DNA of 57,537 nt from a virus: IMG/VR virus record IMGVR_UViG_3300031539_000033. One strand, 5' to 3'. Below are positions 7,263-50,564 of this stretch, in pieces. The notes below the pieces were generated by a model. It saw nothing but the letters and a program-made list of their open reading frames with translations, was not told where the DNA came from and did not search any database. Positions within the stretch are counted from its first letter, which is position 1. Each line of letters starts with the position of its first letter. The position numbers were made by a program, and so were the translations under genes.

Positions 7263-7778
7263 ATGAGTGAATGTGACCGGACGACATGGGCAGGGGTTCC
7301 CAAACCAGCGCGTGCCGACTGGGAGGCGGCAGGTGGCGATGACGAAAGACAATCGCTGTTTCGGCGGGCACATGAGCGGGCCTCTAGATGGCGTAAGCGA
7401 TGGCAGCGAGCAAGTGCGCGTTGTGGGTGCTACCACCAGGAACGGAACAAGTACCGCCAGCGTGCGGACGCGGCCGAGCAGAGGGCGATGGAGGAGCGCG
7501 CCCGTGCCGAGGCCGCGGAGAAGCGGGTCGCGGAACTGGAGTCGGAGCGATCCATCCTCACCGACCGAGGCATAGCCGTATCGGAGAGGGTCTGTTCTTC
7601 ATGTGGTCGGCATATGTTGGCCTATGGCGGCGGTGACACGATCTGCCCTGAGTGCAATGCGCGCGGACGGGTCACGGACCTAGAGATGATACACGCCGCG
7701 GAGTCCCGCTGCGTGAACGCGGAGAAGGAGGCGGGAAAGGCCGACAATGCGCCAGAAGAAGCAGCGGGAGACATCTGA
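7263..7778 (+). CDS. Hypothetical coiled-coil protein with a zinc ribbon
   Basis: 171 aa. Charged heptad-like stretch AEQRAMEERARAEAAEKRVAELE, then CSSCG...CPECN. Confidence 0.65.
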   Translation: MSECDRTTWAGVPKPARADWEAAGGDDERQSLFRRAHERASRWRKRWQRASARCGCYHQERNKYRQRADAAEQRAMEERARAEAAEKRVAELESERSILTDRGIAVSERVCSSCGRHMLAYGGGDTICPECNARGRVTDLEMIHAAESRCVNAEKEAGKADNAPEEAAGDI

Positions 7779-7920
7779 GCAACGCCGCGAGCGTATCCGC
7801 CGGAATCATCCGGGGATGGAGGAACGCGCGGACTGGACGGAGATACTCGACTGGGCCTATAGGTGTCCGGAGATGATGCGCCTGGGGAGGCGGCCCCTCA
7901 AAGGGGTGCGGGTAGCCTGA
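7747..7920 (+). CDS. Possible 57-aa basic protein (below the track cutoff)
   Basis: Hand translation MRQKKQRETSEQRRERIRRNHPGMEERADWTEILDWAYRCPEMMRLGRRPLKGVRVA. G/C-rich third positions. Confidence 0.35.
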   Translation: MRQKKQRETSEQRRERIRRNHPGMEERADWTEILDWAYRCPEMMRLGRRPLKGVRVA

Positions 7921-8110
7921 GAGAAGACCCCGGCTCATCACCGGGGCCTTCCTGCTTCTTCTTCCTCGGGTGGCCCTTGGGCCAGCCCCCTTTTCGTCCT
8001 CGGCGCATCATCTCCTGGCTATATCCGTTCCCGTGTTTCTTCTTCTGCGCGGCGTGGGATTGTTTCACCAGGCGGCGGGCAGCGTCGGACAGATCGTCGG
8101 GTTTGGGCAT
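7898..8110 (-). CDS. Small basic protein with a KGG-like motif
   Basis: 70 aa from an internal ATG (MPKPDDLSDAARRL...). Purine-rich leader ggagaaagagaggagagaggagcgtcc upstream of the ATG. SQEMMRRGRKGG resembles the stress-protein KGG repeat. Confidence 0.5.
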   Translation of the reverse strand: MPKPDDLSDAARRLVKQSHAAQKKKHGNGYSQEMMRRGRKGGWPKGHPRKKKQEGPGDEPGSSLRLPAPL

Positions 8111-8160
8111 GGACGCTCCTCTCTCCTCTCTTTCTCCCGCGCCCCACCCCACCGGGGGGG

Positions 8161-8544
8161 TTAGAGACCTCCGTCTCTCTCCAGTCGGCGGTAGCAGTTG
8201 GGGCAGATGGTGGCGGCCCCGTTTACAAGCAGGTAGTACGTCGCCGGGAGCGGTTCTGCGTGACACTCCCCACACTCCCCTCGCTCCTCAGCGGGGAGCT
8301 GGGATTCTATCTTCTCCCACCGCTGATCTGCCATGGTGATCTTCATTGTGGCCTTGGCGGGCGTCAACTCGTCTTCTCTCCACCAGTCGGAGTGATCGTC
8401 GGGGAATCGCACCTCGATTTGCGGAGGGTAGGTCGCGCCGGGACTTGGGATTATCGCTACCACCCTGCCGGTATATCCGACCTCGTTCTCCGGGTCTCCA
8501 CATTTCGGCACTACAACATCGCCCACTCTCATTGTCGCTTCCAT
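8161..8544 (-). CDS. Hypothetical protein with a C-terminal zinc ribbon
   Basis: 127 aa; alternative start at 8532 with better SD spacing. CGEC...CPNC. Lies directly downstream of a consensus promoter. Confidence 0.65.
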   Translation of the reverse strand: MEATMRVGDVVVPKCGDPENEVGYTGRVVAIIPSPGATYPPQIEVRFPDDHSDWWREDELTPAKATMKITMADQRWEKIESQLPAEERGECGECHAEPLPATYYLLVNGAATICPNCYRRLERDGGL

Positions 8545-8587
8545 CTTCCTTCCCTTCGGGCCTTCGCCCTCGTCTAGCGTCTAACCT

Positions 8588-8615
8588 ACTATACCATACC
8601 TAAGCTATATGTCAA
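8588..8615 (-). promoter_or_regulatory. Sigma70-type promoter (leftward)
   Basis: Minus strand reads TTGACA-16 nt-TATAGT with TGg directly upstream of the -10. 20/28 identical to the promoter at 45472-45499. T-rich tract upstream. Confidence 0.65.
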
Positions 8616-42908: not shown

Positions 42909-43283
42909 ATGATGAGAGCAGTTCTGTTGGCAGTAGTTGTGTTGGCGTTGTGCGCGGTGCCGGCGATGGCAGCGGGCGTTGACCTCCCGGTAACGGGAGG
43001 CACGGCCGTCTGGTTGCAGCCCTTCGACGCGACTCCAGGGAGCGCGGGCGCAGCCATTTCTCTGCTGCTCCCCGAAAAGATCGTTGGGGAGACAGTGGCG
43101 GAACTAATTGCCTTCGACATCATCGTTCACCCCGAAGGGGACGCGGTACGCATTGACCCCGGTTTGTCTATCTCCCTCAAGACAGACCTCGGCGTCCCCA
43201 TAAAGGTGGGGTTGGTGCTGCTCCCATTGACTGACTACAAGTTCGGCGGGTTCGTCGGGATGCAGATTTTCCAGACGTTCTGA
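42909..43283 (+). CDS. Secreted protein (Sec signal peptide), leader paralogous to the ORF at 42358
   Basis: MMRAVLLAVVVLALCAVPAMA/AG. About 30 nt of the leader are near-identical to 42358's. Confidence 0.65.
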   Translation: MMRAVLLAVVVLALCAVPAMAAGVDLPVTGGTAVWLQPFDATPGSAGAAISLLLPEKIVGETVAELIAFDIIVHPEGDAVRIDPGLSISLKTDLGVPIKVGLVLLPLTDYKFGGFVGMQIFQTF

Positions 43284-43316
43284 GGACTCCTCTCCGCTCC
43301 TCGCTCCGCACGGCAA

Positions 43317-43358
43317 GGGGGTGGCCCGCCTTATCTCGCCTCCGGGTGGGCCGCCCCC
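43317..43358 (+). terminator. Long GC hairpin (terminator/processing-like, no U-tract)
   Basis: gggggtggcccgcc / ggtgggccgccccc: 14 bp including two G-U pairs, with a 14-nt loop. Confidence 0.4.
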
Positions 43359-43375
43359 GGCCAATGGAGGTGAAT

Positions 43376-44608
43376 ATGGCAGAAACACAAGGAGACGTAG
43401 CGAACCGTCGCCCGTCCGAGTTGACGCGCGACGAATGGCAGGAACTTCGCGACCAGCATATTACGGCACTTGGCGCGGCGCAGGCCCTCGGCACATCGGA
43501 CAAGACGGTTGCGCGTTACTGGCGGCGCCACGGAATCACCTATGAGCATTCCAGCATCCGGCGCGCCGACCGGGTGCGTATCCCCGTGAACTCCAGCGAA
43601 CCGGAGTATGCCGTCCTTCTCGCCGTCCTCAAGCGGAAGAATGCCAGTCACTCCGTCATCGACATCGCCAATGCGCTGAACTGCCCTCCGCGCGAGGTGG
43701 AGAGGTTGGCAGGGGCGGCGCGGGCCGATGGGTACGATGTGGACGTATCGAATGAAGACGTTAACCTTCAGCGTGCTCCCGACCACGAGCGCCGATCATT
43801 CGACCACGACTTCTATGGCGAACACTTCAAGATCGGCATCTTCGGCGATACCCAATATGGTAGTAGCTATGCGGCAGAACGAGAGGTGGCTCAGTTCTTC
43901 GCCTTCTGCCGCCAGGAGAAGGTGCAGGCCCTGTACCATACCGGAGATGTGACCGATGGCAACGGCGTCTACCCTGGGCATATCCGAGAGTTGCGCCCGG
44001 ATTGCCTGAACGCCGATGCTCAAGCCGAGCGTGCCGCCCAAGCGTTTGTGGCGGCGGGACTGCCGATCTACTTCATCCTCGGAAACCACGACCTGAAGTG
44101 GTATCGAGATATTGGGTTCGACGTGGGGCTGAAGATTGAGGACAGGGCAATACAACTGGGGGCGAAGCATCCGATCAAGTGTCTCGGGCACGAAGACGCC
44201 AGGGTGAGGTTGGGAACGACCACGCCGTGCCTGCTAGACATCCTGCATCCGAGCGGTGGTACGCCTTACGCGATTTCGTATCGTTCGCAGAAGATCGTCG
44301 CCGATATGGAGGGTGGCGATAAGCCCCACATCGTCGCCGTTGGACACCTCCACAAGGCCGAGGACCTACCCCACATTCGTAATGTTGTCGCTATTCAGCC
44401 AGGATGTTTCCAGTGGCAGACGCCATTCATGCGAAAGAAACCAACTCCTGCCCACGTGGCCGGATGCGTCATCGAGGGATGGATGACTAGGCTAGAGGTG
44501 GGCGACTCAGAGGCTAATGATCGTAGCGAGAACGGAGTGCCAACGCTCACCCGACTACGATACGAGTGGCTGAAGTTCTACGCGCCGAAAAGGATGGCGG
44601 CGGGATAG
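43376..44608 (+). CDS. HTH/winged-helix domains fused to a calcineurin-like metallophosphoesterase
   Basis: ATG after ggagg. TSDKTVARYWRRHG (HTH). IGIFGDTQYG, HTGDVTDGNG, ILGNHD and VAVGHLH are MPE motifs I, II, III and V. Confidence 0.75.
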   Translation: MAETQGDVANRRPSELTRDEWQELRDQHITALGAAQALGTSDKTVARYWRRHGITYEHSSIRRADRVRIPVNSSEPEYAVLLAVLKRKNASHSVIDIANALNCPPREVERLAGAARADGYDVDVSNEDVNLQRAPDHERRSFDHDFYGEHFKIGIFGDTQYGSSYAAEREVAQFFAFCRQEKVQALYHTGDVTDGNGVYPGHIRELRPDCLNADAQAERAAQAFVAAGLPIYFILGNHDLKWYRDIGFDVGLKIEDRAIQLGAKHPIKCLGHEDARVRLGTTTPCLLDILHPSGGTPYAISYRSQKIVADMEGGDKPHIVAVGHLHKAEDLPHIRNVVAIQPGCFQWQTPFMRKKPTPAHVAGCVIEGWMTRLEVGDSEANDRSENGVPTLTRLRYEWLKFYAPKRMAAG

Positions 44609-45061
44609 ATGACTGAACCCTGCGAGGAGTGCGGCGTTGACATGGTTCACCAGGAGGGGTGCCTTGTCTGTCCGAGGTGTGGAGCCGGCGAATGCGAAGG
44701 ACTGCGTCTTCATACGGGTGTGGATGAAGGACGTGCCGGAGTACGAAGCAAAGGGGTGGAGTCTCGACTACGCGAAGGAGACGACGCACAGCGACCTGAT
44801 GGGGACGGACTATCTCGACTGCCTGATGGTTCGCCCATGCCGGAGGACCTGGCGCGACTGGTGGGCGTTATTCGTGGGCTGGCTGATAGGTCTATTGAGA
44901 GAACGATTCAGGCACACGCAAAATACGGTACTGACTGGCTCACGAGGGACAATGCGCGGGAACTCGGAGACGAACTCGCGGACGCAGTAAGCTACCTCGG
45001 GATGTTTCTCGACTGCGTGGAGCGGATCGTTGCACGGGCCGTAGTACAGGGGAGGCCATGA
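44609..45061 (+). CDS. Composite ORF: zinc-ribbon start and helical end, but the middle third codes in another frame (see finding)
   Basis: TAGATG coupling. CEEC...CPRC at the start. Over 44700-44837, third-position G+C is 17/46 in this frame versus 39/46 in the +1 frame. MPEDLARLV... from 44837 looks genuine. Confidence 0.35.
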   Translation: MTEPCEECGVDMVHQEGCLVCPRCGAGECEGLRLHTGVDEGRAGVRSKGVESRLREGDDAQRPDGDGLSRLPDGSPMPEDLARLVGVIRGLADRSIERTIQAHAKYGTDWLTRDNARELGDELADAVSYLGMFLDCVERIVARAVVQGRP

Positions 45062-45369
45062 ATATCGCCAGGGTTGACGATTGTCAATTCTGCTATCGCG
45101 TCATGCGCATCAACGAGGATGAGACCGAGGCCTGGTGCTTCGGGCTACGGAACCATCCCACGGATCGACCCTGCGATGTAGTACAGTGGTGTCGAATCCC
45201 TGCCGGCAAATCCGCCGTCCGCGAATACATGTTCACGATTGACGAGGCGGCTTCCCTCGTATCGGGGCTTGCCGAGGTTATCCGAGTGGCAACCCGCCAT
45301 AAGCGGCATCGGTGCCGGCGGAAGAAGTGCTCGGAGTGGTCGGAATGCAGCAACGGGGGCGGTGCCTAG
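45058..45369 (+). CDS. Hypothetical Cys-rich protein
   Basis: 103 aa. ATGA overlap. Confidence 0.55.
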   Translation: MNIARVDDCQFCYRVMRINEDETEAWCFGLRNHPTDRPCDVVQWCRIPAGKSAVREYMFTIDEAASLVSGLAEVIRVATRHKRHRCRRKKCSEWSECSNGGGA

Positions 45370-45471
45370 CATTCTTCCCGCCTCCCCCCGTTTCCCCCAA
45401 AACGCCCCCACGCCCAACCTCGTGCCCCCTGTACCGTTTCCCCCTTGTCGCATCTTTGTGCAAAAAACCTA

Positions 45472-45499
45472 TTGACATATGGTCACCATATGGTATACT
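45472..45499 (+). promoter_or_regulatory. Strong sigma70-type promoter (rightward)
   Basis: TTGACA-16 nt-TATACT with TGg directly upstream of the -10, in a 165-nt gap, 35 nt upstream of the first small ORF. Confidence 0.7.
45476..45492. promoter_or_regulatory. Operator-like perfect inverted repeat inside the promoter spacer
   Basis: CATATGG-TCA-CCATATG. Overlaps the 10-bp palindrome ACCATATGGT (45485-45494). Confidence 0.5.
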
Positions 45500-45533
45500 A
45501 GGATTAGAAGAAGGGCGAGAGCGCAAGGAGAGG

Positions 45534-45761
45534 ATGATGGCAGAACTAACACCCGAAGTGGCTACCGAGCTTGCCGACGACATTGGCGGAATACCTGACG
45601 ACCTCCAGCACGCACAAGCAGAGGTCGATGCCCTCGCGATGTATAGCGAAGGCGAAGGTCCCCGGCCATCTCCCGAACAGGTCAAGCGGCTGATCCGCTT
45701 CCTGCGATCCGCAGGGATGACGGCCATAGGCGCAGCGCAAACACTCGAAGACTGCTTCTAG
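45534..45761 (+). CDS. Small acidic protein
   Basis: 75 aa. Leader gggcgagagcgcaaggagagg upstream of the ATG. Confidence 0.6.
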   Translation: MMAELTPEVATELADDIGGIPDDLQHAQAEVDALAMYSEGEGPRPSPEQVKRLIRFLRSAGMTAIGAAQTLEDCF

Positions 45762-45835
45762 CTCCTGGTCCAGGCTCCTCTCGGGGGGCCTGCGCGAGCA
45801 GCTAGACGGGGCGAGATGCCCGGAAGGGGAAAGAG

Positions 45836-46084
45836 ATGATCAAAGCTAAGGCGGCGCGGAGAATCAGAGGAGAAGAGGAGGGGCAGTTGTTTGTGCAATG
45901 CACGAAGCAGGCCGAGCATATCGCCCTTCTTGACGCATGGCGGGCCACGAAGGGGCAAGCTCCTGCCGAGCGGCCTCCCTGCCCCTTGCCAGAAGGTCAC
46001 ATGATGTTCTCTCGGCCCGAGGACTACAACTGCCGACCGGCCACAATAGCGCAAGTCGGCGGAGTCCTGTGCGTGGCTGAATAG
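45836..46084 (+). CDS. Small hypothetical protein
   Basis: 82 aa. Hairpin plus leader gcagctagacggggcgaga...ggggaaagag upstream of the ATG. Confidence 0.55.
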   Translation: MIKAKAARRIRGEEEGQLFVQCTKQAEHIALLDAWRATKGQAPAERPPCPLPEGHMMFSRPEDYNCRPATIAQVGGVLCVAE

Positions 46085-46085
46085 C

Positions 46086-46170
46086 TCCTGCGCTGACCTC
46101 CGCCCCGGCCCATCCACGCGGTGGGCCGAGCCGGAAAGTCAGAAGGAGCGCGAGAGCGCAAGGAGAGAGG
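46086..46170 (+). repeat. Intergenic unit A, copy 1 (hairpin + purine-rich leader)
   Basis: tcctgcgctgacctccgccccggcccatccacgcggtgggccgagccggaaagtcagaaggagcgcgagagcgcaaggagagagg; about 90% identical to 46656-46737. Confidence 0.85.
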
Positions 46171-46365
46171 ATGATGGCCCTACCGAAAGATCGCGAAGAG
46201 GCCTACACGGATTATCTGGAAAGCGTACGCGTTGCCATCGCACGACAGAGTGCGGGAATCGAAGCGGAGGCATGGACTCGATACCGGAAGGTGTGCGGCG
46301 GGTTAACAGATTACCCGCGGAGCATATATGCCTACTCCCCGACACTAGCGGCCTCCCTGCGCTGA
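46171..46365 (+). CDS. Small hypothetical protein
   Basis: 64 aa. Ends ...SLR* within cctgcgctga. Confidence 0.55.
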   Translation: MMALPKDREEAYTDYLESVRVAIARQSAGIEAEAWTRYRKVCGGLTDYPRSIYAYSPTLAASLR

Positions 46366-46441
46366 CGAGGGGGCAACCCCGAAACCTCCCACTCGGGAGG
46401 TCCGCAGCTAGACGAGGGCGAGAGCCCGAAGGAGAGAGACA

Positions 46442-46666
46442 ATGGGAGAAGCGCAGTCACTTCGCGAAGCCGCTGTTAGGGCTCTGGAGAAGTTATGGCT
46501 GAAAGGCGCGGGAAGGGCGGTTATCTATGCCGAGTCTTACCCCGAAGAAAGTATTCCTGCCACCGACGCGAGCTGGTTTGATATCGACGATCCCCTGTGG
46601 CAGTGGGCCATCGGGGCCAAAGCCCCAGCGCGGTCGAAGGTGATTTTCGACATTATCCTGCGCTGA
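46442..46666 (+). CDS. Small hypothetical protein
   Basis: 74 aa. Hairpin cctcccactcgggagg plus leader gcagctagacgagggcgagagcccgaaggagagagaca upstream of the ATG. Confidence 0.55.
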   Translation: MGEAQSLREAAVRALEKLWLKGAGRAVIYAESYPEESIPATDASWFDIDDPLWQWAIGAKAPARSKVIFDIILR

Positions 46667-46737
46667 CCTCTGCCCCGGCCCATCCGCGAGGTGGGCCGAG
46701 TCGGAAAGTCAGACGGAGCGAGAGCGCAAAGGAGAGA
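46656..46737 (+). repeat. Intergenic unit A, copy 2
   Basis: 570 nt downstream of copy 1. Its first 11 nt are the last codons and stop of the preceding ORF. Confidence 0.85.
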
Positions 46738-46947
46738 ATGATGGCGAAGCGGCTAGACATTGACGCTATCCTGGCAGACAGTCGCCGGCGCGAAATCCGA
46801 GACCTCATCTGCCCGGCTTGCGGACGGGTGACGACTATGCAGGCCCATCCGAAAGATACTCACTACCTGTGCGATGCCTGCACCCTTGCGACTGGACAGA
46901 CCTTCCTGCGAAAAGTACAGGGCAGCGCGAAGCGCGGCAAGCGATGA
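46738..46947 (+). CDS. Small zinc-ribbon protein
   Basis: 69 aa. CPACG...CDAC. Confidence 0.6.
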   Translation: MMAKRLDIDAILADSRRREIRDLICPACGRVTTMQAHPKDTHYLCDACTLATGQTFLRKVQGSAKRGKR

Positions 46948-47162
46948 CCACCTGCCCCCGCTGCCACAGGCCCTGGACGGAGTGCCCGGACCCCATCCGA
47001 CTACCGGGACGCTCGGAACGCTACATCTGCGCGGACTGCGCGCTGCACCTGCGGCGGCCCGTGCTGGCGAAGCTCTCACCGAGAGACAGGGCGACGGTCA
47101 TGGCGAGAGCCTGGAATCCGATTGTTGAGGGTGCGAAGTTCCTAGCGCGAAGGCGAAGGTGA
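46944..47162 (+). CDS. Small zinc-ribbon protein
   Basis: 72 aa. ATGA coupling. CPRC...CADC. Confidence 0.6.
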   Translation: MTTCPRCHRPWTECPDPIRLPGRSERYICADCALHLRRPVLAKLSPRDRATVMARAWNPIVEGAKFLARRRR

Positions 47163-47365
47163 GGAACGAAATGCCTAGACTACAACAGATCGCAAGCCTT
47201 CTGAGACGTGTCGCCGCGATGCTGGAGCGCGGGGATACGTTCGCCCGACTGGTGGACTGCGATGGGACCACTATCGGACACTTTGACGCGACGACAAAGA
47301 CAACGTTTCGCCTCAGCCTGTCCACCGACGGGCCGGGGTTTGAGGAGAATACCGATGCGACCTAA
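47159..47365 (+). CDS. Small hypothetical protein
   Basis: 68 aa. GTGA coupling (alternative ATG at 47171). Confidence 0.5.
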   Translation: MRNEMPRLQQIASLLRRVAAMLERGDTFARLVDCDGTTIGHFDATTKTTFRLSLSTDGPGFEENTDAT

Positions 47366-47549
47366 CCACTGGACGCCAGAACGAATCCAAGCCCTCGCCG
47401 ACCGCCTCGGCTCCCTGGAGGCCCTAGCCGTCGCCCTCGATGTGAGCTTCTATACGGTGAATCGGTGGGTGAAGGGACGGTTCGCCCCCGACAAGAGAAA
47501 CGCGAAGGCGCTAGATGAGCTGGTGGCGCGGCAAGGCCCCGGCCGGTAA
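47355..47549 (+). CDS. HTH DNA-binding protein (excisionase/Aca-like), last gene of the small-ORF operon
   Basis: 64 aa. LAVALDVSFYTVNRWVKGRFAP is an HTH of the Xis/MerR-like type. Confidence 0.6.
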   Translation: MRPNHWTPERIQALADRLGSLEALAVALDVSFYTVNRWVKGRFAPDKRNAKALDELVARQGPGR

Positions 47550-47557
47550 CCGGGGCC
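47535..47557. terminator. Hairpin at the convergent gene junction (bidirectional terminator-like)
   Basis: ggccccgg-ccggtaa-ccggggcc, a perfect 8-bp stem. The stop codon of the + gene sits in the loop. Confidence 0.45.
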
Positions 47558-47567
47558 TCCCTCGTCC

Positions 47568-48098
47568 CTATGCGTTGGGTTTCCCGTATGCTTCGGGGTC
47601 CCAACCCTCCATCTCTAGCGGATTGCTCTTCTCTCTCGTGATATGGCCATCACACCATAGAATTATCCAGGTCCCGCGGTGCTCACAGAATGTTCGGATG
47701 ACATCGGCATCATTGATGGCCCACGGTTGGTCTTCTGGGGCGAGCACAAATGCGCCAGTTACGGTAGTCGTAGTACCGACTATAAGTTGTTCCTTGTCGG
47801 CGGGCCATGGGTTCCAGTTGTCGGCGTATGTGTCTATGTCCTCGGGAGCATCGGGGCAATATTCTAGCCCATCCAGTTCTGCTAGAACCCCATAATCGGC
47901 GACTGACGGATGGGAACTATACATGTCGTAGTGCATGACACACAGGGCGGCGATCCGTTTTAGATTCGAGCCGCAGGCCAATTGGTGTGCCCTCGCCTTC
48001 GCCGCCCCGAATACCGGAAAGGCGATGGCGATCAGTATCAGCATCATGAGGATAACGACCAGAATTTCGATCAAGGTAAAGCCGCGTCGTCTTAGCAT
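47568..48098 (-). CDS. Prepilin-type N-terminal cleavage/methylation protein of the H-X9-DG (DUF1559-like) class
   Basis: RRGFTLIEILVVILMMLILIAIAFP...AHQLACGSNLKRIAAL...Y, and C-terminal HRGTWIILWCDGH (H-x9-DG). Confidence 0.8.
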   Translation of the reverse strand: MLRRRGFTLIEILVVILMMLILIAIAFPVFGAAKARAHQLACGSNLKRIAALCVMHYDMYSSHPSVADYGVLAELDGLEYCPDAPEDIDTYADNWNPWPADKEQLIVGTTTTVTGAFVLAPEDQPWAINDADVIRTFCEHRGTWIILWCDGHITREKSNPLEMEGWDPEAYGKPNA

Positions 48099-48137
48099 CT
48101 CCGTCCCCCTATGCAGAATGTGACTTCCCGGCGGGGT

Positions 48138-48506
48138 TCACGGGACAAACGGCAACGACTGCCATATGATGATATAGACTGGAATCCAGGCGACTGCAAG
48201 CACGAGTCCAACGATACTGCATACCAATCCGGCCGTCGCCATGCCGGGGTTCGAGCCGTTGGTGGAACGCCGTGCGAAGACTATCCCGAGAATTGCTAGG
48301 GCGGGACCTATGAGCGGGATGCCAAAGAAGAACAGAGTGACAATGCCGAGGACGAGGGCGGCTACCGGCGCGTCCCCTCGTGGTACCCTATCGGTAGAAG
48401 CGAATTCCCTTGAGGTCCCCGGCAATAGGCCACCGCAGTTGAAGCAACCTTCTCGGTGGATCGAATTCGCGGCTCCGCAGCCAGGGCAGTCAATCATCTC
48501 GGGCAT
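48138..48506 (-). CDS. Zinc-ribbon membrane protein (DUF4190-like)
   Basis: 122 aa from MPEMIDCPGCG...CFNCG, then two Gly-rich TM helices (LVLGIVTLFFFGIPLIGPALAILGIVFA, AGLVCSIVGLVLAVAWIPVYII). Confidence 0.65.
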   Translation of the reverse strand: MPEMIDCPGCGAANSIHREGCFNCGGLLPGTSREFASTDRVPRGDAPVAALVLGIVTLFFFGIPLIGPALAILGIVFARRSTNGSNPGMATAGLVCSIVGLVLAVAWIPVYIIIWQSLPFVP

Positions 48507-49470
48507 GATGGCCCCCTTCCCGCCCATGCAGGGATGAGTATACCACATCCCGCCCCTGCATGGAATTTGCCAGAGTCTCCACCGCTGCCCGCTTCTGGTT
48601 CGTATCCACCGCCAGATACCGGGCCGTGGTAGAGAGTTCCGCGTGCCCGAGAAGCTCCTGCACCGTGCGGATGTCTACTCCATTCCGGACGAGTTGTGTG
48701 GCGAAGGTATGCCGGAAGCAGTGGGGCGAGATGCTCTTCGCATGGGGGTCCGGCGACTCCCCCGACTTTGGCTCAAGACCCGCCCGCTTTACCAACGACT
48801 TGACTACCTGATAGAGGTGACGGCCCGTGAGAGGCCTGCCATAGTCGTTGACGAGCAGGGTGTCTACGGTTCGCCATGGATGGCGGTAGGGGAGATATTG
48901 ATAGATCGCCCGGATGACGGCAGTAGAGAGGGGCACCATGCGCTCTTTGTTCCCCTTGCCGTGCACCCGTAAAGTGGCCGCCTGCAAGTCCACGTCTTCA
49001 AGGCGGATTTCCGCCAGTTCGGTCGCGCGAATCCCGGTGCCGCAGAATAGCCAGAGTGCCGCGCGATGCCAGGGCTTCTCCGCCGCCAGGAGCAGCGCAT
49101 CAAGTTCGAGCAACGTGAGTGCCTTCGGCAGGGGGCGATTCTTCTGGGGGAGCGGAATCCCATAGACAGGATTTGAGGCAATCTGCCCAGTGATGACGAG
49201 GTACTTATAGAATGACCCCAATGCCGAGAGGCGCCGCCGAACCGTCGTTGGGCCACCGCTCAGCTCCCGGGCATACTCCACGACGATCTCGCGGGTGACT
49301 TCGGCAGGCTCAGTCAGTTGGGCGTGGCGCAGCCGTAGGAACCGCGTAAATAGCTGCAGGTCGTAGCCATACGCCCGTATCGTCCCTTTAGCGCAGCGCC
49401 GGTAGTCAGAAAGGTAGCCCAAAAAGGAGTTGATAGCGCCGGGGAACTCCTCACGAGATAGTCCCGGCAT
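48490..49470 (-). CDS. int: Tyrosine recombinase / phage integrase
   Basis: 326 aa. SAM-like N-domain. GIRATEL...HGKGNKERMVPL...HCFRHTFATQLVRNGVDIRTVQELLGHAELSTTARY (R..HxxR..Y). Confidence 0.9.
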   Translation of the reverse strand: MPGLSREEFPGAINSFLGYLSDYRRCAKGTIRAYGYDLQLFTRFLRLRHAQLTEPAEVTREIVVEYARELSGGPTTVRRRLSALGSFYKYLVITGQIASNPVYGIPLPQKNRPLPKALTLLELDALLLAAEKPWHRAALWLFCGTGIRATELAEIRLEDVDLQAATLRVHGKGNKERMVPLSTAVIRAIYQYLPYRHPWRTVDTLLVNDYGRPLTGRHLYQVVKSLVKRAGLEPKSGESPDPHAKSISPHCFRHTFATQLVRNGVDIRTVQELLGHAELSTTARYLAVDTNQKRAAVETLANSMQGRDVVYSSLHGREGGHHARDD

Positions 49471-49519
49471 GGTATCCAGCCTTCATATGCCACATTCTGC
49501 GTCCCTTTCTACTGGGGGC

Positions 49520-49528
49520 ATTGTAGCA
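49520..49528 (-). promoter_or_regulatory. Possible extended -10 promoter for int
   Basis: Minus strand reads TGcTACAAT about 45 nt upstream of the int ATG; no good -35. Confidence 0.35.
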
Positions 49529-49579
49529 CGAAAAGGTCTGTCCGCCCGGAAATATTTCTTAAATCCATGGTAAAACCCC

Positions 49580-49608
49580 TTGACAACGTGGAATTGAGGG
49601 TTTAGAAT
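49580..49608 (+). promoter_or_regulatory. Sigma70-type promoter of the rightward early operon
   Basis: TTGACA-17 nt-TAGAAT. The -10 ends 7 nt before ATG 49616, so the mRNA is leaderless or nearly so. Confidence 0.6.
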
Positions 49609-49615
49609 AGGCTCC

Positions 49616-49876
49616 ATGATGACAGAGGGAATCGCCGTAATGGAAGAAAAGCGAGATCGACTGGCGAGCCGCCGGGACCGCACCGCCCTGAATACTCGGC
49701 GTCGGGCGAAGGGAATTAGCTTTTCGGCGCTCGCGCGGCACATGAACTGCGACGAGAAATGGTTGTGGGAACGACTCAGCGAGAAGTCCGCGGTTCAAGG
49801 GGTCCGGCTTTCTGAACTCCGCACGATCCGCAAGGCGCTTGACGAGATTCTGGCGCAGAGGGCAGGAGGGCGTTAG
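49616..49876 (+). CDS. HTH transcriptional regulator (Cro/CI-like position)
   Basis: 86 aa. RRAKGISFSALARHMNCDEKWLWERLS. Divergent from int. Confidence 0.65.
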   Translation: MMTEGIAVMEEKRDRLASRRDRTALNTRRRAKGISFSALARHMNCDEKWLWERLSEKSAVQGVRLSELRTIRKALDEILAQRAGGR

Positions 49877-49896
49877 GGTTCCACTTACGATATAAC

Positions 49897-50097
49897 GTGG
49901 ATTATACCCCATCCGAGCGAAAGGCCGTCGAGGAACAAGTCGCCAATAGGTTATTCCACAGAATGATTGGACTGCGAACAGACAAACGAATAACAGGCTC
50001 TGCCTCATGGGTGGAGATTCCCCTTCAGGGGCCGTCGGGCGAGGCCATCCGCGAGGGTGCTGGCGGCCCCTGCAATCATCTCTCGGAGGCTCGATGA
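49897..50097 (+). CDS. Hypothetical protein
   Basis: 66 aa, GTG start. Its stop overlaps the next ATG (ATGA). Confidence 0.4.
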   Translation: MDYTPSERKAVEEQVANRLFHRMIGLRTDKRITGSASWVEIPLQGPSGEAIREGAGGPCNHLSEAR

Positions 50098-50564
50098 TGA
50101 CCCCCGCGGCCCTCATACCAGAATACACACAGGCGGCAGAGAAGCGGTCGCAGTTGGCCGCGGGGTTTGGACTGTGCGGTGGCGCAGCCTCCGTCCTGGG
50201 GGGCGGGGAACTTTCCTCCCTCGCCCTCTGCCATCATTGCAGCGCCTCAATCAGGGTGAGTCCGCCGCAAACCGCGGGGCGCGGTCACCTCCTCGGATCA
50301 GACGCCCCTTCGCGCCCCGCGGCCGCAATCATACTCACAAGGAGGGGACCGATGGCCCCGCAACCCCGGTCGCGCTCGTCGGCACACCCGCGTTACCGGG
50401 AGGGGCTACCCACCAAACAGTCGGGCCGCGCCACAACTGACTGCGCTGATGGTTCTGAGTGCTGCTCGTCTGGAACATCGTGCGGCCCGGCAGCGTATCT
50501 CGTCCGGCTGGCGGTCAAATACACTCCCCCCGAACAGCCATGGCCGCCAGTCGGGCGTTTGTGA
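50094..50564 (+). CDS. Hypothetical protein
   Basis: 156 aa from the ATG after ggagg. G/C3-rich; low-complexity middle. Confidence 0.4.
   Translation: MMTPAALIPEYTQAAEKRSQLAAGFGLCGGAASVLGGGELSSLALCHHCSASIRVSPPQTAGRGHLLGSDAPSRPAAAIILTRRGPMAPQPRSRSSAHPRYREGLPTKQSGRATTDCADGSECCSSGTSCGPAAYLVRLAVKYTPPEQPWPPVGRL

What the first reader, a model, noticed from the sequence alone, without database searches (positions are those of the whole stretch)
45472..47549. Cassette-like array of eight small ORFs behind an operator-bearing consensus promoter, ending in an HTH gene (anti-defence-operon architecture)
A near-consensus promoter (TTGACA-16-TATACT, TGg upstream of the -10) has a perfect inverted repeat, CATATGG-TCA-CCATATG, in its spacer. 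It is followed by 61-82-aa ORFs at 45534, 45836, 46171, 46442, 46738, 46944 and 47159, and finally a 64-aa HTH protein (47355-47549) before a hairpin at the convergent junction. The first five ORFs are each preceded by the same kind of unit: a stop codon, a GC hairpin, and a conserved purine-rich leader (GCGAGAGCGCAAGGAGAG or variants). Two units (46086-46170 and 46656-46737) are about 90% identical over about 85 nt, and the string cctgcgctgac recurs three times, twice as the last codons plus stop of an ORF. The units look like shuffled gene cassettes. The layout of a strong promoter, small novel ORFs and a terminal HTH autoregulator is the known layout of anti-CRISPR/Aca and other anti-defence operons.
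Basis: partly seen in the sequence, partly recalled or inferred. Interest (0 to 1): 0.65.

Follow-up and report, generated by a model that had tools for sequence, protein, structure and literature searches.

The report
Swappable small-gene array in a phage
A temperate phage carries an optional operon in which unrelated small genes of unknown function are joined by the same promoter, the same RNA hairpin and ribosome-site spacers and a conserved DNA-binding regulator gene, and related phages hold different genes in the same slots, so the region looks like a plug-in site for host-interaction genes.

Summary
A near-consensus sigma-70 promoter (45472-45499) has a perfect dyad in its spacer. It is followed by eight small ORFs, hairpin-plus-leader spacers before ORF2 to ORF5, and a terminal Xre-type HTH gene.

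Comparison with about eight related metagenomic phage loci changes its standing. Only the regulatory parts and the HTH gene (ORF8) are conserved: the promoter, a GGGC-N4-GCCC mini-hairpin with a strong Shine-Dalgarno leader, and the post-stop hairpins. The payload ORFs are almost all different and match no known family.

- Two loci that are 99.5% identical differ by two cassettes, and the breakpoint lies in the leader.
- One relative lacks the whole array.
- The window holds a second two-gene mini-array of the same build on the minus strand (8615-7898).

ORF1, one other cassette and ORF8 are under purifying selection.

Best reading: an optional, probably self-repressed accessory-gene array whose cassettes are exchanged by recombination at standard intergenic units. 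It combines an Acr-Aca-like layout with PeSL-like shuffling. An anti-defence function is plausible but untested, and lysogenic conversion is an equally live alternative. The integron, toxin-antitoxin and non-coding readings are disfavoured.

The parts
45472..45499 (+). Sigma-70-type promoter TTGACA-16-TATACT with an extended -10 TG. The same promoter family heads every related array.
   Evidence: 11 of 12 matches. (same -35, -10 and downstream AGGATTAGA in L008, L087, L069, L102, L103, L104, L108 and at window 8615 on the minus strand).
45476..45492 (.). Candidate operator: the perfect dyad CATATGG-TCA-CCATATG, that is two CATATG hexamers 11 bp apart, inside the promoter spacer.
   Evidence: the pattern CAYRTG-N5-CAYRTG occurs twice in the window, expected 0.05. 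(the half-sites are conserved and the centre is variable in the promoters of arrays that end in an ORF8 homologue).
45500..45536 (+). Standard 5' leader: AGGATTAGAAGAA, an imperfect mini-hairpin GGGC-GAGA-GCGC at 45513-45524, then the Shine-Dalgarno sequence AAGGAGAG.
   Evidence: 21 leaders aligned; 97.6% of stem cells are paired.
45537..45761 (+). ORF1: 74 aa (75 if it starts at 45534), acidic (pI 4.2). It is the first cassette in three arrays (window, L008, L120).
   Evidence: (pN/pS 0.18). (one distant homologue, again the first cassette)..
45759..45835 (+). Intergenic unit of type A: a long hairpin that starts at the TAG stop codon, then the mini-hairpin GGGC-GAGAT-GCCC, then the Shine-Dalgarno sequence.
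   Evidence: (four copies in the window, L008 and L102 keep the structure, with 3 compensatory pairs).
45836..46084 (+). ORF2: 82 aa, a singleton cluster with no match to any protein family.
46082..46170 (+). Intergenic unit of type D, copy 1: a hairpin of about 65 nt (-43.9 kcal/mol, z -2.9), then the mini-hairpin GCGC-GAGA-GCGC, then the Shine-Dalgarno sequence.
46171..46365 (+). ORF3: 64 aa, a singleton cluster. It ends in ..CTG CGC TGA, which lies within the shared cctgcgctgac string.
46363..46441 (+). Intergenic unit: two short GC hairpins, then GCAGCTAGACGA, the mini-hairpin GGGC-GAGA-GCCC, then the Shine-Dalgarno sequence.
   Evidence: (the leader part matches leaders in L008, L087, L102, L103 and L069).
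46442..46666 (+). ORF4: 74 aa, a singleton cluster. Its last codons and stop codon lie in the left end of the type D unit.
46664..46740 (+). Intergenic unit of type D, copy 2 (90% identical to copy 1), with an imperfect mini-hairpin and the Shine-Dalgarno sequence.
46741..46947 (+). ORF5: 68 aa (69 if it starts at 46738), basic, with a C4 zinc-ribbon pattern.
   Evidence: weak zinc-ribbon hits. (eS27-like, E 0.014)..
46944..47162 (+). ORF6: 72 aa, very basic, with a CxxC...CxxC pattern. It overlaps ORF5 by 4 nt. Its coding signal is weak.
   Evidence: (codon log-odds 0.008). (one gene caller did not call it).
47171..47365 (+). ORF7: 64 aa. Its last 11 nt overlap the start of ORF8.
47355..47549 (+). 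ORF8: a 64-aa Xre/Cro-type HTH and the candidate autorepressor. It is the only protein shared by the arrays of the window, L087, L102, L103-L107, L108 and L113.
   Evidence: HTH_3 22.5 bits, cut-off 23. (16 homologues). (model and fold matches). (pN/pS 0.3-0.6)..
47534..47558 (.). GC hairpin that spans the ORF8 stop codon at the convergent junction. It has no U-tract.
7898..8615 (-). Second array of two cassettes with the same build. It has the promoter TTGACA-16-TATAGT (8615-8588), a leader with GGGC-GAAG-GCCC, a 127-aa ORF (8544-8161), a unit made of a C-run, GGT and G-runs with a purine leader, and a 70-aa ORF (8110-7898).

Best explanation
The region is an optional, hypervariable accessory-gene array of a temperate phage, a multi-gene moron, assembled from standard regulatory parts.

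**Proposed mechanism**
- One strong host-type promoter transcribes the whole array.
- Each cassette is an unrelated small ORF with two fixed ends. At its 5' end is a common leader: a TAGA-type motif, a 4-bp GC mini-hairpin and a strong Shine-Dalgarno sequence. At its 3' end is a GC hairpin that begins at or right after the stop codon.
- The last small gene, ORF8, is a conserved Xre-type HTH whose start overlaps the end of the gene before it, so the two are probably translationally coupled. It most likely binds as a dimer to the two CAYRTG half-sites in the promoter spacer and shuts the operon down, as Aca proteins do.
- The hairpin and leader units most likely insulate each cistron, through mRNA processing or stability and independent translation starts.
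- Because the units are nearly identical in front of unrelated genes, they also serve as short homology patches. Recombination at these patches adds, deletes and swaps cassettes between related phages.

**Shown here by comparison:** the conserved parts, the variable payload, a breakpoint in the leader, the optional presence of the array, purifying selection, and the HTH fold.

**Inferred:** repression by ORF8, the RNA roles of the hairpins, the recombination mechanism, and the payload function. The payload is probably host-interaction proteins: anti-defence, takeover or exclusion.
For: **Only the regulatory parts and ORF8 are shared**
- Window versus L008: homology covers only 45465-45828 plus leader fragments.
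- Window versus L087: only 44620-45539 (up to the first ATG) and from 47352 (ORF8) onward.
- Window versus L102 and L103: only the promoter, the hairpin and leader units, and ORF8.
- Window versus L108 and L113: only ORF8.

**Cassette gain, loss and reuse**
- L103 and L104 are 99.5% identical from the leader of a 175-aa gene onward, but L103 has two extra cassettes.
- L111 has no array between the 103-aa gene and the integrase.
- The same cassette occurs with different neighbours. ORF1 is in the window, L008 and L120. A cassette of about 70 aa is in L087, L103 and L113.
- All-against-all BLASTP of 41 array proteins found no similarity between cassettes.

**Conserved leader and hairpins**
- Twenty-one leaders stand in front of genes that mostly share no detectable similarity. 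In them the mini-hairpin is 97.6% paired, and one pair is GC in 16 and CG in 3.
- The type A hairpin is kept as a structure, with compensatory changes.

**Regulator and promoter**
- The same promoter family heads all arrays, and a second mini-array lies at 8615-7898 on the minus strand.
- ORF8 gives a confident 4-helix HTH model. Its best fold matches are operator-binding autoregulators: the C.Kpn2I controller protein, HigA2 and P22 c2. Aca2 and Aca10 appear lower in the list.
- The spacer hexamers vary along with one recognition-helix residue: N or H goes with CATATG, S with CATGTG, and Y with CACGTG/TATGTG (n = 5).

**Coding evidence**
- pN/pS is 0.18 for ORF1, 0.14 for cassette E and 0.3-0.6 for ORF8.
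- Codon usage favours the annotated frame for seven of the eight ORFs.

**Recombination machinery**
- The phages encode recombination genes: YqaJ in the window and ERF in L008. Rad52-like phage recombinases are reported to drive relaxed homologous recombination (title of PMC3945230; the paper itself was not read).
Against: - No experiment supports any step.
- L008 has a similar promoter but no ORF8 homologue in its array. It has an RHH-like 62-aa gene instead (my reading; no Pfam hit). Autoregulation by ORF8 is therefore not universal, and the spacer similarity may partly reflect common descent together with the -35 CA and the extended -10 TG.
- The covariation in the mini-hairpin rests on a single variant (GCGC/GCGC) that may have arisen once.
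- All copies of this phage in other samples are 100% identical over 45300-47700, so there is no within-population variation to test.
- In L113-L119 the ORF8 homologue is followed on the same strand by larger genes, so it is not always the last gene of the operon.
- The payload function is entirely unknown, and ORF6 may not be a real gene.
Confidence: 0.65

Rival explanations
1. This is specifically an anti-defence (Acr-Aca-type) early operon. The small proteins inhibit host immune systems immediately after DNA entry, and ORF8 acts as the Aca that shuts off the strong promoter.
For: - The layout matches acr-aca operons: a strong promoter with an inverted repeat, small novel ORFs and a terminal HTH (PMC6765145 from its abstract, PMC13551039).
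- Extreme payload turnover between close relatives is typical of counter-defence loci.
- 23 of 41 array proteins have a pI below 6.
- PMC13551039 reports RNA motifs in the 5' UTR and between genes of acr-aca operons, Aca proteins predicted to regulate neighbouring operons, and an RHH-type Aca. These parallel the repeated leader hairpins, the second array at 8615 and the RHH-like gene in L008.
Against: - No payload protein matches a known family in Pfam, PHROGs or PDB sequences.
- ORF8 matches no solved Aca by sequence. Its fold similarity to Aca2 and Aca10 is generic to Xre proteins and ranks below controller proteins and antitoxins.
- No anti-defence library was available.
- The host and its defence systems are unknown.
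Confidence: 0.3
2. This is a lysogenic-conversion or superinfection-exclusion moron array. It is expressed from the prophage, benefits or protects the lysogen, and is kept at a low steady level by ORF8.
For: - The array sits in the classic accessory position between the end of the late genes and the integrase, and it is optional.
- Its neighbours on the other strand are envelope-type accessory genes: a prepilin-type protein and a DUF4190 membrane protein.
- In L113-L119 ORF8 is followed by a sulfatase-like protein, a 285-aa protein with no Pfam match and a PD40 beta-propeller protein. In L102 and L104 SLH-domain proteins lie next to the array.
- A consensus host-type promoter that needs no phage factor, and arrays inserted against the local gene direction (window 8615 on the minus strand, L108), are moron traits (moron definition in the abstract of PMC6469090).
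Against: - Most payload proteins are 45-105 aa, and none gave a Pfam match to a membrane, secreted or enzymatic family. That is unusual for conversion functions.
- There are no PADLOC defence hits.
- There are no expression data.
Confidence: 0.25
3. This is an integron-like system. The post-stop hairpins are attC-like recombination sites, and the adjacent tyrosine recombinase inserts and excises promoterless cassettes behind a common promoter.
For: - The form is similar: one promoter, promoterless ORFs each followed by an imperfect hairpin, and a XerC/D-like tyrosine recombinase about 1 kb away.
Against: - The recombinase scores 113.8 bits against the integron-integrase model (cut-off 265) and is closest to XerC/XerD.
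- It is convergent with the array and downstream of it, not divergent at an attI site.
- Arrays of the same build lie next to a serine recombinase (L102) or next to no called recombinase (L108, window 8615).
- The hairpins fall into several unrelated sequence types, and I saw no attC-like R or L boxes by eye.
- The mapped breakpoint lies in the leader, not in the hairpin.
Confidence: 0.03
4. ORF7 and ORF8 form a HigBA-type toxin-antitoxin pair, and the rest of the array is unrelated cargo.
For: - ORF8 resembles the HigA2 antitoxin in fold (TM 0.75).
- ORF7 overlaps ORF8, and the gene order of toxin first matches higBA.
Against: - The gene in front of ORF8 is unrelated in every relative. It is a Sigma70_r4-like 88-aa protein, a 166-aa protein, a DUF7736 protein, a 119-aa protein rich in charged residues, and a 66-aa protein.
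- ORF7 has no RelE or HigB match.
- There are no PADLOC toxin hits.
Confidence: 0.04

Closest known systems
Acr-Aca (anti-CRISPR and anti-CRISPR-associated) operons, including the Aca RNA motifs and multi-operon control described in PMC13551039, and Aca2 in PMC6765145
   Same: - A strong promoter with an inverted repeat overlapping it.
- Small, fast-changing ORFs of unknown function.
- A small HTH gene at the 3' end.
[quoted passage not shown]
- A second operon in the same genome with the same promoter type.
- A relative (L008) with an RHH-like gene in place of the HTH (my reading of the sequence; it has no Pfam match).
   Different: - No payload protein is a known Acr or anti-defence protein.
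- ORF8 belongs to no described Aca family by sequence.
- The dyad lies wholly in the spacer and is not transcribed, so the RNA hairpins are not copies of the DNA operator.
- The number of cassettes (7) and the strict repetition of one leader before each cistron exceed what PMC13551039 describes for acr-aca operons.
- Neither binding nor repression has been tested.
PeSLs (promoter-early stem-loops) of T4-type phages, the mobile regulatory cassettes that mediate modular shuffling (PMC2839356, PMC4122927)
   Same: - Repeated intergenic units run from the stop codon through a GC stem-loop to the Shine-Dalgarno sequence and start codon.
- They flank ORFans in variable regions.
- Insertions and deletions between close relatives have their ends in the units.
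- Their proposed role is as homology patches that also carry expression signals.
   Different: - Each PeSL contains its own sigma-70 promoter and an effective terminator. Here only the first unit has a promoter, and the internal units are hairpin plus leader with no promoter.
- The phage here is temperate, has high GC content and is not T4-like.
- The array ends in a dedicated regulator gene.
- Mini-circles were not tested.
Start-associated sequences (SAS) and extended SAS of Cluster K mycobacteriophages (PMC3203893)
   Same: - A conserved asymmetric motif that includes the Shine-Dalgarno sequence lies a few bases upstream of the ATG of many unrelated non-structural genes.
- It is often preceded by an inverted repeat.
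- It has an outer GGG...CCC symmetry.
- Its function is unknown but is thought to concern translation.
   Different: - The sequence differs: GGGATAGGAGCCC in SAS versus GGGC-GAGA-GCCC-GAAGGAGAG here.
- SAS are spread over half a genome, not concentrated in one operon.
- The authors found that ESAS repeats did not support RNA pairing, whereas the hairpins here keep their pairing.
Morons of lambdoid and other temperate phages (definition in the abstract of PMC6469090; the lambda b-region placement is from my own knowledge)
   Same: - Optional insert between conserved genes.
- It has its own host-type promoter and ends in a hairpin.
- It is sometimes oriented against the local gene direction.
- It lies near the integrase.
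   Different: - Morons are usually single genes with a canonical terminator.
- Here up to eight cistrons share one promoter and a standard intercistronic grammar, and the array carries its own regulator.
Early operon of phage T7 with RNase III sites between cistrons (from my own knowledge, not checked in a paper here)
   Same: - Strong host-RNAP promoters are followed by small early genes.
- One of those genes is an anti-restriction protein.
- The genes are separated by large hairpins that are processed to give stable monocistronic mRNAs.
   Different: - There is no sequence or Rfam match.
- Processing is not shown here.
- The T7 genes are not swapped as cassettes.

Membership tests
Acr-Aca operon | The 3'-terminal gene encodes a small HTH (or RHH) DNA-binding protein. 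| tested here: met
   The ORF8 model has pLDDT 87.5 and a 4-helix Xre fold. HTH_3 scores 22.5 bits against a cut-off of 23.
Acr-Aca operon | An inverted-repeat operator lies in or overlaps the operon promoter and is bound by the Aca. | tested here: inconclusive
   The dyad is present and statistically unusual. Its half-sites are conserved in the promoters of arrays that end in an ORF8 homologue. Binding cannot be tested with these tools, and L008 is a counter-example.
Acr-Aca operon | At least one upstream gene is a demonstrated anti-CRISPR or anti-defence protein, or is homologous to one. | tested here: inconclusive
   There are no significant hits in Pfam, PHROGs or PDB sequences. No dedicated anti-defence library was available, and no functional test was possible.
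Acr-Aca operon | The regulator belongs to a described Aca family (Aca1-Aca14). | tested here: not met
   A profile of 17 ORF8 homologues finds no Aca chain in the PDB at E up to 1. Aca2 and Aca10 appear only as generic fold neighbours at ranks 27-46. Families without a solved structure were not tested.
PeSL (T4-type promoter-early stem-loop) | Each unit contains a sigma-70-like early promoter. | tested here: not met
   Only 45472-45499 scores as a promoter on the + strand within the operon. The internal units lack -35 and -10 boxes.
PeSL (T4-type promoter-early stem-loop) | A GC-rich stem-loop lies between the upstream stop codon and the downstream Shine-Dalgarno sequence and start codon, flanking ORFans in variable regions. 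| tested here: met
PeSL (T4-type promoter-early stem-loop) | Insertions, deletions and replacements between close relatives have their ends in the units. | tested here: met
   The L103/L104 breakpoint lies in the leader. The homology blocks between the window and L008 or L087 end in leaders.
Integron | An IntI-type tyrosine recombinase lies next to the array. | tested here: not met
   TIGR02249 scores 113.8 bits against a cut-off of 265, and the best matches are XerC and XerD. Other arrays lie next to a serine recombinase or no recombinase.
Integron | attC sites with conserved R and L boxes lie at the 3' end of each cassette. | tested here: inconclusive
   The hairpins fall into several unrelated sequence types. 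By eye I saw no attC-like R or L boxes. No attC model or pattern search was run.
Moron | An optional insert between conserved genes with its own promoter, transcribed independently. | tested here: met
   The array is absent in L111. It has its own consensus promoter. Arrays are inserted against the local gene direction at window 8615 and in L108. Independent transcription is inferred.
Cluster K SAS/ESAS | The 13-bp motif GGGATAGGAGCCC lies 3-7 bp upstream of start codons. | tested here: not met
   The leaders here read GGGC-N4-GCCC-G(A)AGGAGAG. This is a different sequence, so the two are analogous rather than homologous.

The most novel reading that the evidence does not exclude
The repeated unit of mini-hairpin plus Shine-Dalgarno sequence in front of every cassette is an RNA operator. 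A trans-acting factor recognises it: either the terminal HTH itself, as shown for Aca2 on its own 5' UTR, or a host or phage RNase or RNA-binding protein. One regulator would then set transcription at the dyad and translation or stability of each cistron at its own copy of the hairpin. The same units would double as the recombination joints that let phages of this lineage trade cassettes. That would make the array a natural plug-and-play expression platform with standard parts.
Probability: 0.15. Interest if true: 0.8.

Novelty: new variant of a known kind. Interest (0 to 1): 0.58.

Why it matters
If the reading holds, the conserved parts give a sequence handle for finding accessory-gene arrays in an uncultivated phage lineage whose proteins have almost no database relatives. 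These parts are the promoter with its dyad, the GGGC-N4-GCCC leader, the post-stop hairpins and the ORF8 family.

About 45 distinct small proteins already sit in these slots across about eight loci. That is a ready candidate list for anti-defence, host-takeover or exclusion functions.

The locus also links two ideas that are usually treated apart. One is Aca-type autoregulation of counter-defence operons. The other is PeSL-type shuffling through repeated regulatory units. It shows both in a temperate, high-GC phage, with the recombination joint mapped to the translation leader.

The standard intercistronic unit resembles the insulator parts used in synthetic operons, and it could be tested as such.

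Tried and rejected
**Searches for relatives**
- A DNA search of 45300-47700 against 50,697 phage records found no match.
- An IMG/VR scan with the Metallophos protein found none. A scan with the ORF8 alignment found none. A scan with the promoter 17-mer gave only chance matches in low-GC contigs.
- The one metagenome scan, also with the 17-mer, gave 63 hits. Four were true (L052, the same contig as L009, plus L069, L087 and a short L010-type contig), and the rest were chance.
- The genome scan for a host gave only a weak 26-residue match in a Pirellulales MAG, so the host remains unknown.
- Copies of the same phage from other samples are 100% identical, so no population variation could be used.

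**RNA and family searches**
- Rfam at E up to 1 over 45000-50000 found nothing. There are no tRNAs in the window.
- PADLOC found nothing apart from a weak HTH match for ORF8.

**ORF1**
- The word-index search found no homologue.
- The exhaustive search found one true homologue and one TPR-repeat artefact.
- The single-sequence model is poor (pLDDT 68), and its fold search is meaningless.

**Readings rejected**
- The integron reading is rejected on the recombinase score and context.
- The toxin-antitoxin reading is rejected because the partner gene varies.
- An excisionase role for ORF8 is rejected. The arrays also occur away from any called tyrosine integrase, and the best family matches are Xre/Cro-type HTH families (HTH_3, YdaS, P22 Cro) rather than an excisionase family.
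- A role for ORF8 as the essential lysogeny repressor is rejected because L111 has an integrase but no array.

Full report
**1. The observation**

- The promoter is TTGACA-16-TATACT at 45472-45499. It scores 11 of 12 with TG before the -10 and is the best promoter-like site in 43000-50500.
- Its spacer holds the perfect dyad CATATGG-TCA-CCATATG at 45476-45492. The exact sequence is unique in the window, and shuffles gave 0.00 expected matches even with up to 3 mismatches.
- Eight ORFs of 64-82 aa follow.
- ORF2 to ORF5 are each preceded by a stop codon, a GC hairpin and a purine-rich leader. ORF5 to ORF8 are packed tightly or overlap.
- The repeat 46086-46157 versus 46656-46727 is 90% identical.
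- The leader string GCGAGAGCGCAAGGAGAG occurs twice, against 0.18 expected.
- A GC hairpin spans the ORF8 stop codon.

Some details need correcting.
- ORF1 follows the promoter and leader, not a stop-hairpin unit.
- The 11-mer cctgcgctgac is not above chance by count alone.
- No hairpin has a U-tract.
- ORF6 has no clear codon-usage signal, whereas the other seven ORFs score best in their annotated frame.

Each leader has a 4-bp GC mini-hairpin with a purine tetraloop (GGGC-GAGA-GCCC or GCGC-GAGA-GCGC) directly 5' of the Shine-Dalgarno sequence AAGGAGAG. It comes after a larger hairpin whose 5' arm starts at the stop codon.

**2. Context**

The window looks like a temperate phage genome that reads mostly on the + strand.
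- An amidase and a Metallophos protein lie upstream of the operon.
- Downstream, on the minus strand and convergent with the operon, are a prepilin-type protein (47568-48098), a DUF4190 membrane protein and a XerC/D-like tyrosine integrase at 48490-49470.
- A second consensus promoter at 49580 then starts a + strand operon that contains a YqaJ exonuclease.
- The eight ORFs match no Pfam or PHROG family, apart from a borderline HTH_3 hit for ORF8 and weak zinc-ribbon hits for ORF5 and ORF6.
- They also have no PADLOC match and no significant PDB sequence match.
- Seven of the eight are singleton clusters among 5.8 billion protein clusters. The ORF1 cluster has one further member.

**3. Relatives**

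Copies of this phage in other samples are 100% identical and give no information. Useful relatives came from four routes.

*A 90%-identity cluster mate of ORF1.* This led to L008 and L009. They have the same promoter -35, -10 and leader, ORF1 at about 90% identity and the same hairpin unit after it. Seven different ORFs follow, and then a convergent integrase.

*An exact scan for the 17-mer TGGTATACTAGGATTAG.* Among many chance hits it found L087 and L069. In L087 the upstream genes, the promoter, the dyad (CATATGG-TAG-CCATGTG) and the leader are homologous to the window. The six payload ORFs are all different. The last gene is a 69%-identical homologue of ORF8, followed by the same pilin, DUF4190 and integrase module.

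*Sixteen ORF8 homologues*. These led to L102, L103-L107, L108 and L113-L119. In the six distinct arrays examined, the ORF8 homologue is the last gene of a run of small ORFs, and its start overlaps the preceding gene by 8-17 nt.

*Homologues of the 103-aa gene upstream of the promoter.* These led to L112, which is like L087, and to L111. In L111 that gene is directly followed by the convergent integrase, with no array at all.

*One distant ORF1 homologue.* An exhaustive search found one at 49% identity. It is again the first cassette behind a promoter and a leader of the same build, in L120.

IMG/VR, the phage records and the reference genomes gave nothing usable. The host is unknown.

**4. What is conserved and what is not**

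A BLASTN map shows how little of the operon is shared.

| Window versus | Regions with homology |
|---|---|
| L008 | 45465-45828 (promoter, ORF1, first unit), leader fragments, the integrase, the early promoter |
| L087 | 44620-45539 (ending at the ORF1 ATG), then from 47352 (three bases before the ORF8 ATG) onward |
| L102, L103 | the promoter, the hairpin and leader units, ORF8 |
| L108, L113 | ORF8 only |

- The payload ORFs share nothing. All-against-all BLASTP of 41 array proteins finds no similarity between cassettes.
- A few cassettes recur with different neighbours. ORF1 is in three arrays, and a cassette of about 70 aa is in L087, L103 and L113.
- L103 and L104 are 99.5% identical from the leader of a 175-aa gene onward. 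L103 has two extra cassettes between the promoter and that gene, and the breakpoint lies inside the leader.
- The window itself has a second array of the same build on the minus strand. It has a promoter at 8615-8588, a GGGC-GAAG-GCCC leader, a 127-aa ORF, a hairpin-leader unit and a 70-aa ORF ending at 7898.
- The whole module also occurs in other genomic positions. In L108 it lies between minus-strand genes far from any called integrase. In L102 it lies near a serine recombinase.

**5. The regulatory parts**

*Promoter.* All promoters share TTGACA, a 16-nt spacer, TATACT (or a close variant) and the downstream AGGATTAGA. Within the spacer the two ends are conserved as CAYRTG-like hexamers 11 bp apart, and the central five bases vary.

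| Locus | Spacer hexamers |
|---|---|
| Window | CATATG-GTCAC-CATATG |
| L102 | CATATG-CCTGA-CATATG |
| L087 | CATATG-GTAGC-CATGTG |
| L104 | CATGTG-GCTAC-CATGTG |
| L103 | CATGTG-CCTGC-CATGTG |
| L108 | CACGTG-CTAGA-TATGTG |

- Part of this pattern comes from the -35 CA and the extended -10 TG. The inner bases have no known RNA polymerase role.
- Conserved half-sites around a free centre are what a dimeric HTH operator looks like.
- The hexamer variant tracks one residue in the predicted recognition helix of ORF8. N or H goes with CATATG, S with CATGTG, and Y with CACGTG/TATGTG. This rests on five cases and is only suggestive.
- L008 has no ORF8 homologue in its array. It has one mismatch in each hexamer (CTTGTG, AATGTG) and carries a 62-aa gene that looks RHH-like to me but has no Pfam hit.
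- The pattern CAYRTG-N5-CAYRTG occurs only twice in the window, against 0.05 expected. The second site is at 7600-7616 inside a + strand ORF.

*Leader.* Twenty-one leaders were aligned from in front of genes that mostly share no detectable similarity.
- They share TAGA(C/A)-GA, GGGC-N4-GCCC, G(A)AGGAGAG and the ATG.
- The stem is paired in 97.6% of cells. One pair is GC in 16 leaders and CG in 3.

*Post-stop hairpins.* These fall into a few recurring types.
- Type A has four copies in three phages and keeps its structure, with three compensatory pairs.
- Type D includes the two window repeats and a similar one in L108 with a different apical stem.
- A short C-run/G-run type recurs.
- A type with a C-run, GGT and several G-runs recurs in at least six loci.
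- TAG is the stop codon in 16 of 31 cassettes that are followed by a unit, against 10 of 43 other genes. This fits units that bring their own stop codon.

Rfam has no match for any of this.

**6. Are the ORFs genes?**

- ORF1 (pN/pS 0.18), the roughly 70-aa cassette E (0.14) and ORF8 (0.3-0.6) are under purifying selection.
- ORF2 to ORF7 have no relatives. All but ORF6 have the best codon-usage score in the annotated frame, and ORF2 to ORF5 and ORF7 have a strong Shine-Dalgarno sequence at the right distance.
- ORF5 and ORF6 have CxxC...CxxC patterns.

**7. ORF8**

- A model built from the 17-sequence alignment is confident: pLDDT 87.5, four helices.
- Its best PDB matches are small operator-binding regulators: the C.Kpn2I controller protein (TM 0.76), the HigA2 antitoxin and the P22 c2 repressor. 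Aca2, Aca10 and the AcrIIA15 N-terminal domain appear lower in the list.
- Its matches among viral models are generic Xre HTH proteins.
- By sequence it matches no solved Aca.

**8. Mechanism**

I commit to the following model.
- Host RNA polymerase starts at about 45506 and transcribes the whole array.
- Each cistron has its own strong ribosome site, kept accessible by the neighbouring mini-hairpin.
- The big hairpins, which have no U-tract, do not terminate transcription. They protect the 3' ends after cleavage in the purine-rich single-stranded stretch, so each cassette behaves as an insulated unit. This is inferred by analogy with processed phage early operons.
- ORF8 is translationally coupled to whatever gene precedes it. 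It accumulates and represses the promoter through the dyad. This is inferred from the fold, its position and the operator pattern.
- The near-identical units act as homology patches for cassette exchange. One joint is mapped.
- The phage recombination genes (YqaJ in the window, ERF in L008) could promote this exchange. PMC3945230 reports by title that Rad52-like phage recombinases drive relaxed homologous recombination. I did not read the paper.

The payload function is open. The two live options are counter-defence or host takeover, and lysogenic conversion or exclusion.
- For the first: the Acr-Aca layout, the rapid turnover, and the small and often acidic proteins (23 of 41 with pI below 6).
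- For the second: the position beside the integrase, the envelope-type neighbours, the larger enzymes after ORF8 in L113-L119, and the optional presence.

**9. Comparison with known systems**

- *Acr-Aca operons* (PMC6765145; PMC13551039). The 2026 paper reports Aca-bound RNA motifs in 5' UTRs and between genes, Aca control of neighbouring operons, and an RHH Aca. Each has a parallel here. Membership fails on the tested points: there is no known Acr, and ORF8 is not in a known Aca family.
- *PeSLs of T4-type phages* (PMC2839356). These are the closest match for the shuffling. The internal units here have no promoter, and the phage is not T4-like.
- *SAS/ESAS of Cluster K mycobacteriophages* (PMC3203893). 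These are analogous start-associated motifs with a different sequence.
- *The integron reading* fails on the recombinase and on context.
- *A HigBA-type toxin-antitoxin reading* fails because the partner gene varies.

**10. Verdict**

It is a new variant that combines two known kinds of system, and the function of its cargo is unknown. Interest is moderate to high. The conserved parts make a large set of unknown phage proteins addressable, and the joint use of one unit for expression and for recombination can be tested directly.

Noticed in passing
window 7898-8615 (minus strand): A second array of two cassettes with the same promoter family, leader mini-hairpin and hairpin-leader spacer. It is inserted against the direction of the surrounding + strand genes and has no ORF8 homologue of its own, so it may be controlled in trans.
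   Followed up: partly
window 7600-7616: This is the only other match in the window to the operator pattern CAYRTG-N5-CAYRTG (CATGTGGTCGGCATATG; expected 0.05 matches). It lies inside the + strand ORF 7263-7778, about 280 bp beyond the end of the minus-strand mini-array. Its function is unknown.
   Followed up: partly
window 47568-48548 (minus strand): The phage carries a prepilin-type N-terminal methylation protein of 176 aa and a DUF4190 membrane protein with a weak zinc-ribbon match, between the array and the integrase. Both are present in L087 and absent in L111. They are possible pilus-interference or exclusion genes.
   Followed up: partly
window 8111-8163 (minus strand); also L008 2322-2384 and 2697-2747, L087 (minus-strand reading) 1719-1771 and 2084-2194, L103 4233-4303, L108 5473-5520, L113 145-197: A recurring intergenic unit made of a C-run, GGT and three or four G-runs (for example GGTGGGGTGGGGCTTGGGGTGG). 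It could fold either as a C/G hairpin or as a G-quadruplex. This was not tested.
   Followed up: no
window 47352-47365 and the same junction in L087, L102, L103, L108, L113: The ORF8 start always overlaps the end of the preceding, unrelated gene by 8-17 nt. In three arrays the preceding proteins end in (H/D)AT, because the shared ORF8 module supplies their last codons and stop codon. In the same way, the string cctgcgctgac supplies the Leu-Arg-stop ending of ORF3 and ORF4.
   Followed up: partly
arrays in the window, L008, L087, L102, L103, L108, L113: The stop codon TAG is used by 16 of 31 cassettes that are followed by an intergenic unit, against 10 of 43 other ORFs of at least 100 aa in the window. 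The units appear to start with their own stop codon.
   Followed up: yes
window 49580-49608 and L008 4795-4823: The early-operon promoter next to the integrase (TTGACA-17-TAGAAT) is conserved between the window and L008, spacer included (ACGTGGAAT(T/A)GAGGGT). This suggests a separate operator for the lysis-lysogeny switch. No CI-like gene was identified.
   Followed up: no
L103 4301-4828 and L104 1001-1528; L087 (minus-strand reading) 2430-2693: Some cassettes in relatives give hints of function. One is a 175-aa protein with an HExxH motif. Another is an 88-aa protein that matches Sigma-70 region 4 at 29.6 bits (cut-off 24.1), which could interfere with transcription. There is also a weak SWIM-like zinc finger (below the Pfam cut-off).
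   Followed up: partly
L113 1591-2751; L118 544-2203: In some relatives the ORF8 homologue is followed on the same strand by a sulfatase-like protein of 387 aa, a 285-aa protein with no Pfam match and a PD40 beta-propeller protein. These are envelope-type cargo downstream of the regulator.
   Followed up: partly
window 43346-44608: This 420-aa protein has a Metallophos domain with weak similarity to the phosphoesterase part of the archaeal DNA polymerase II small subunit. It sits just upstream of the array, and its role is unknown.
   Followed up: no
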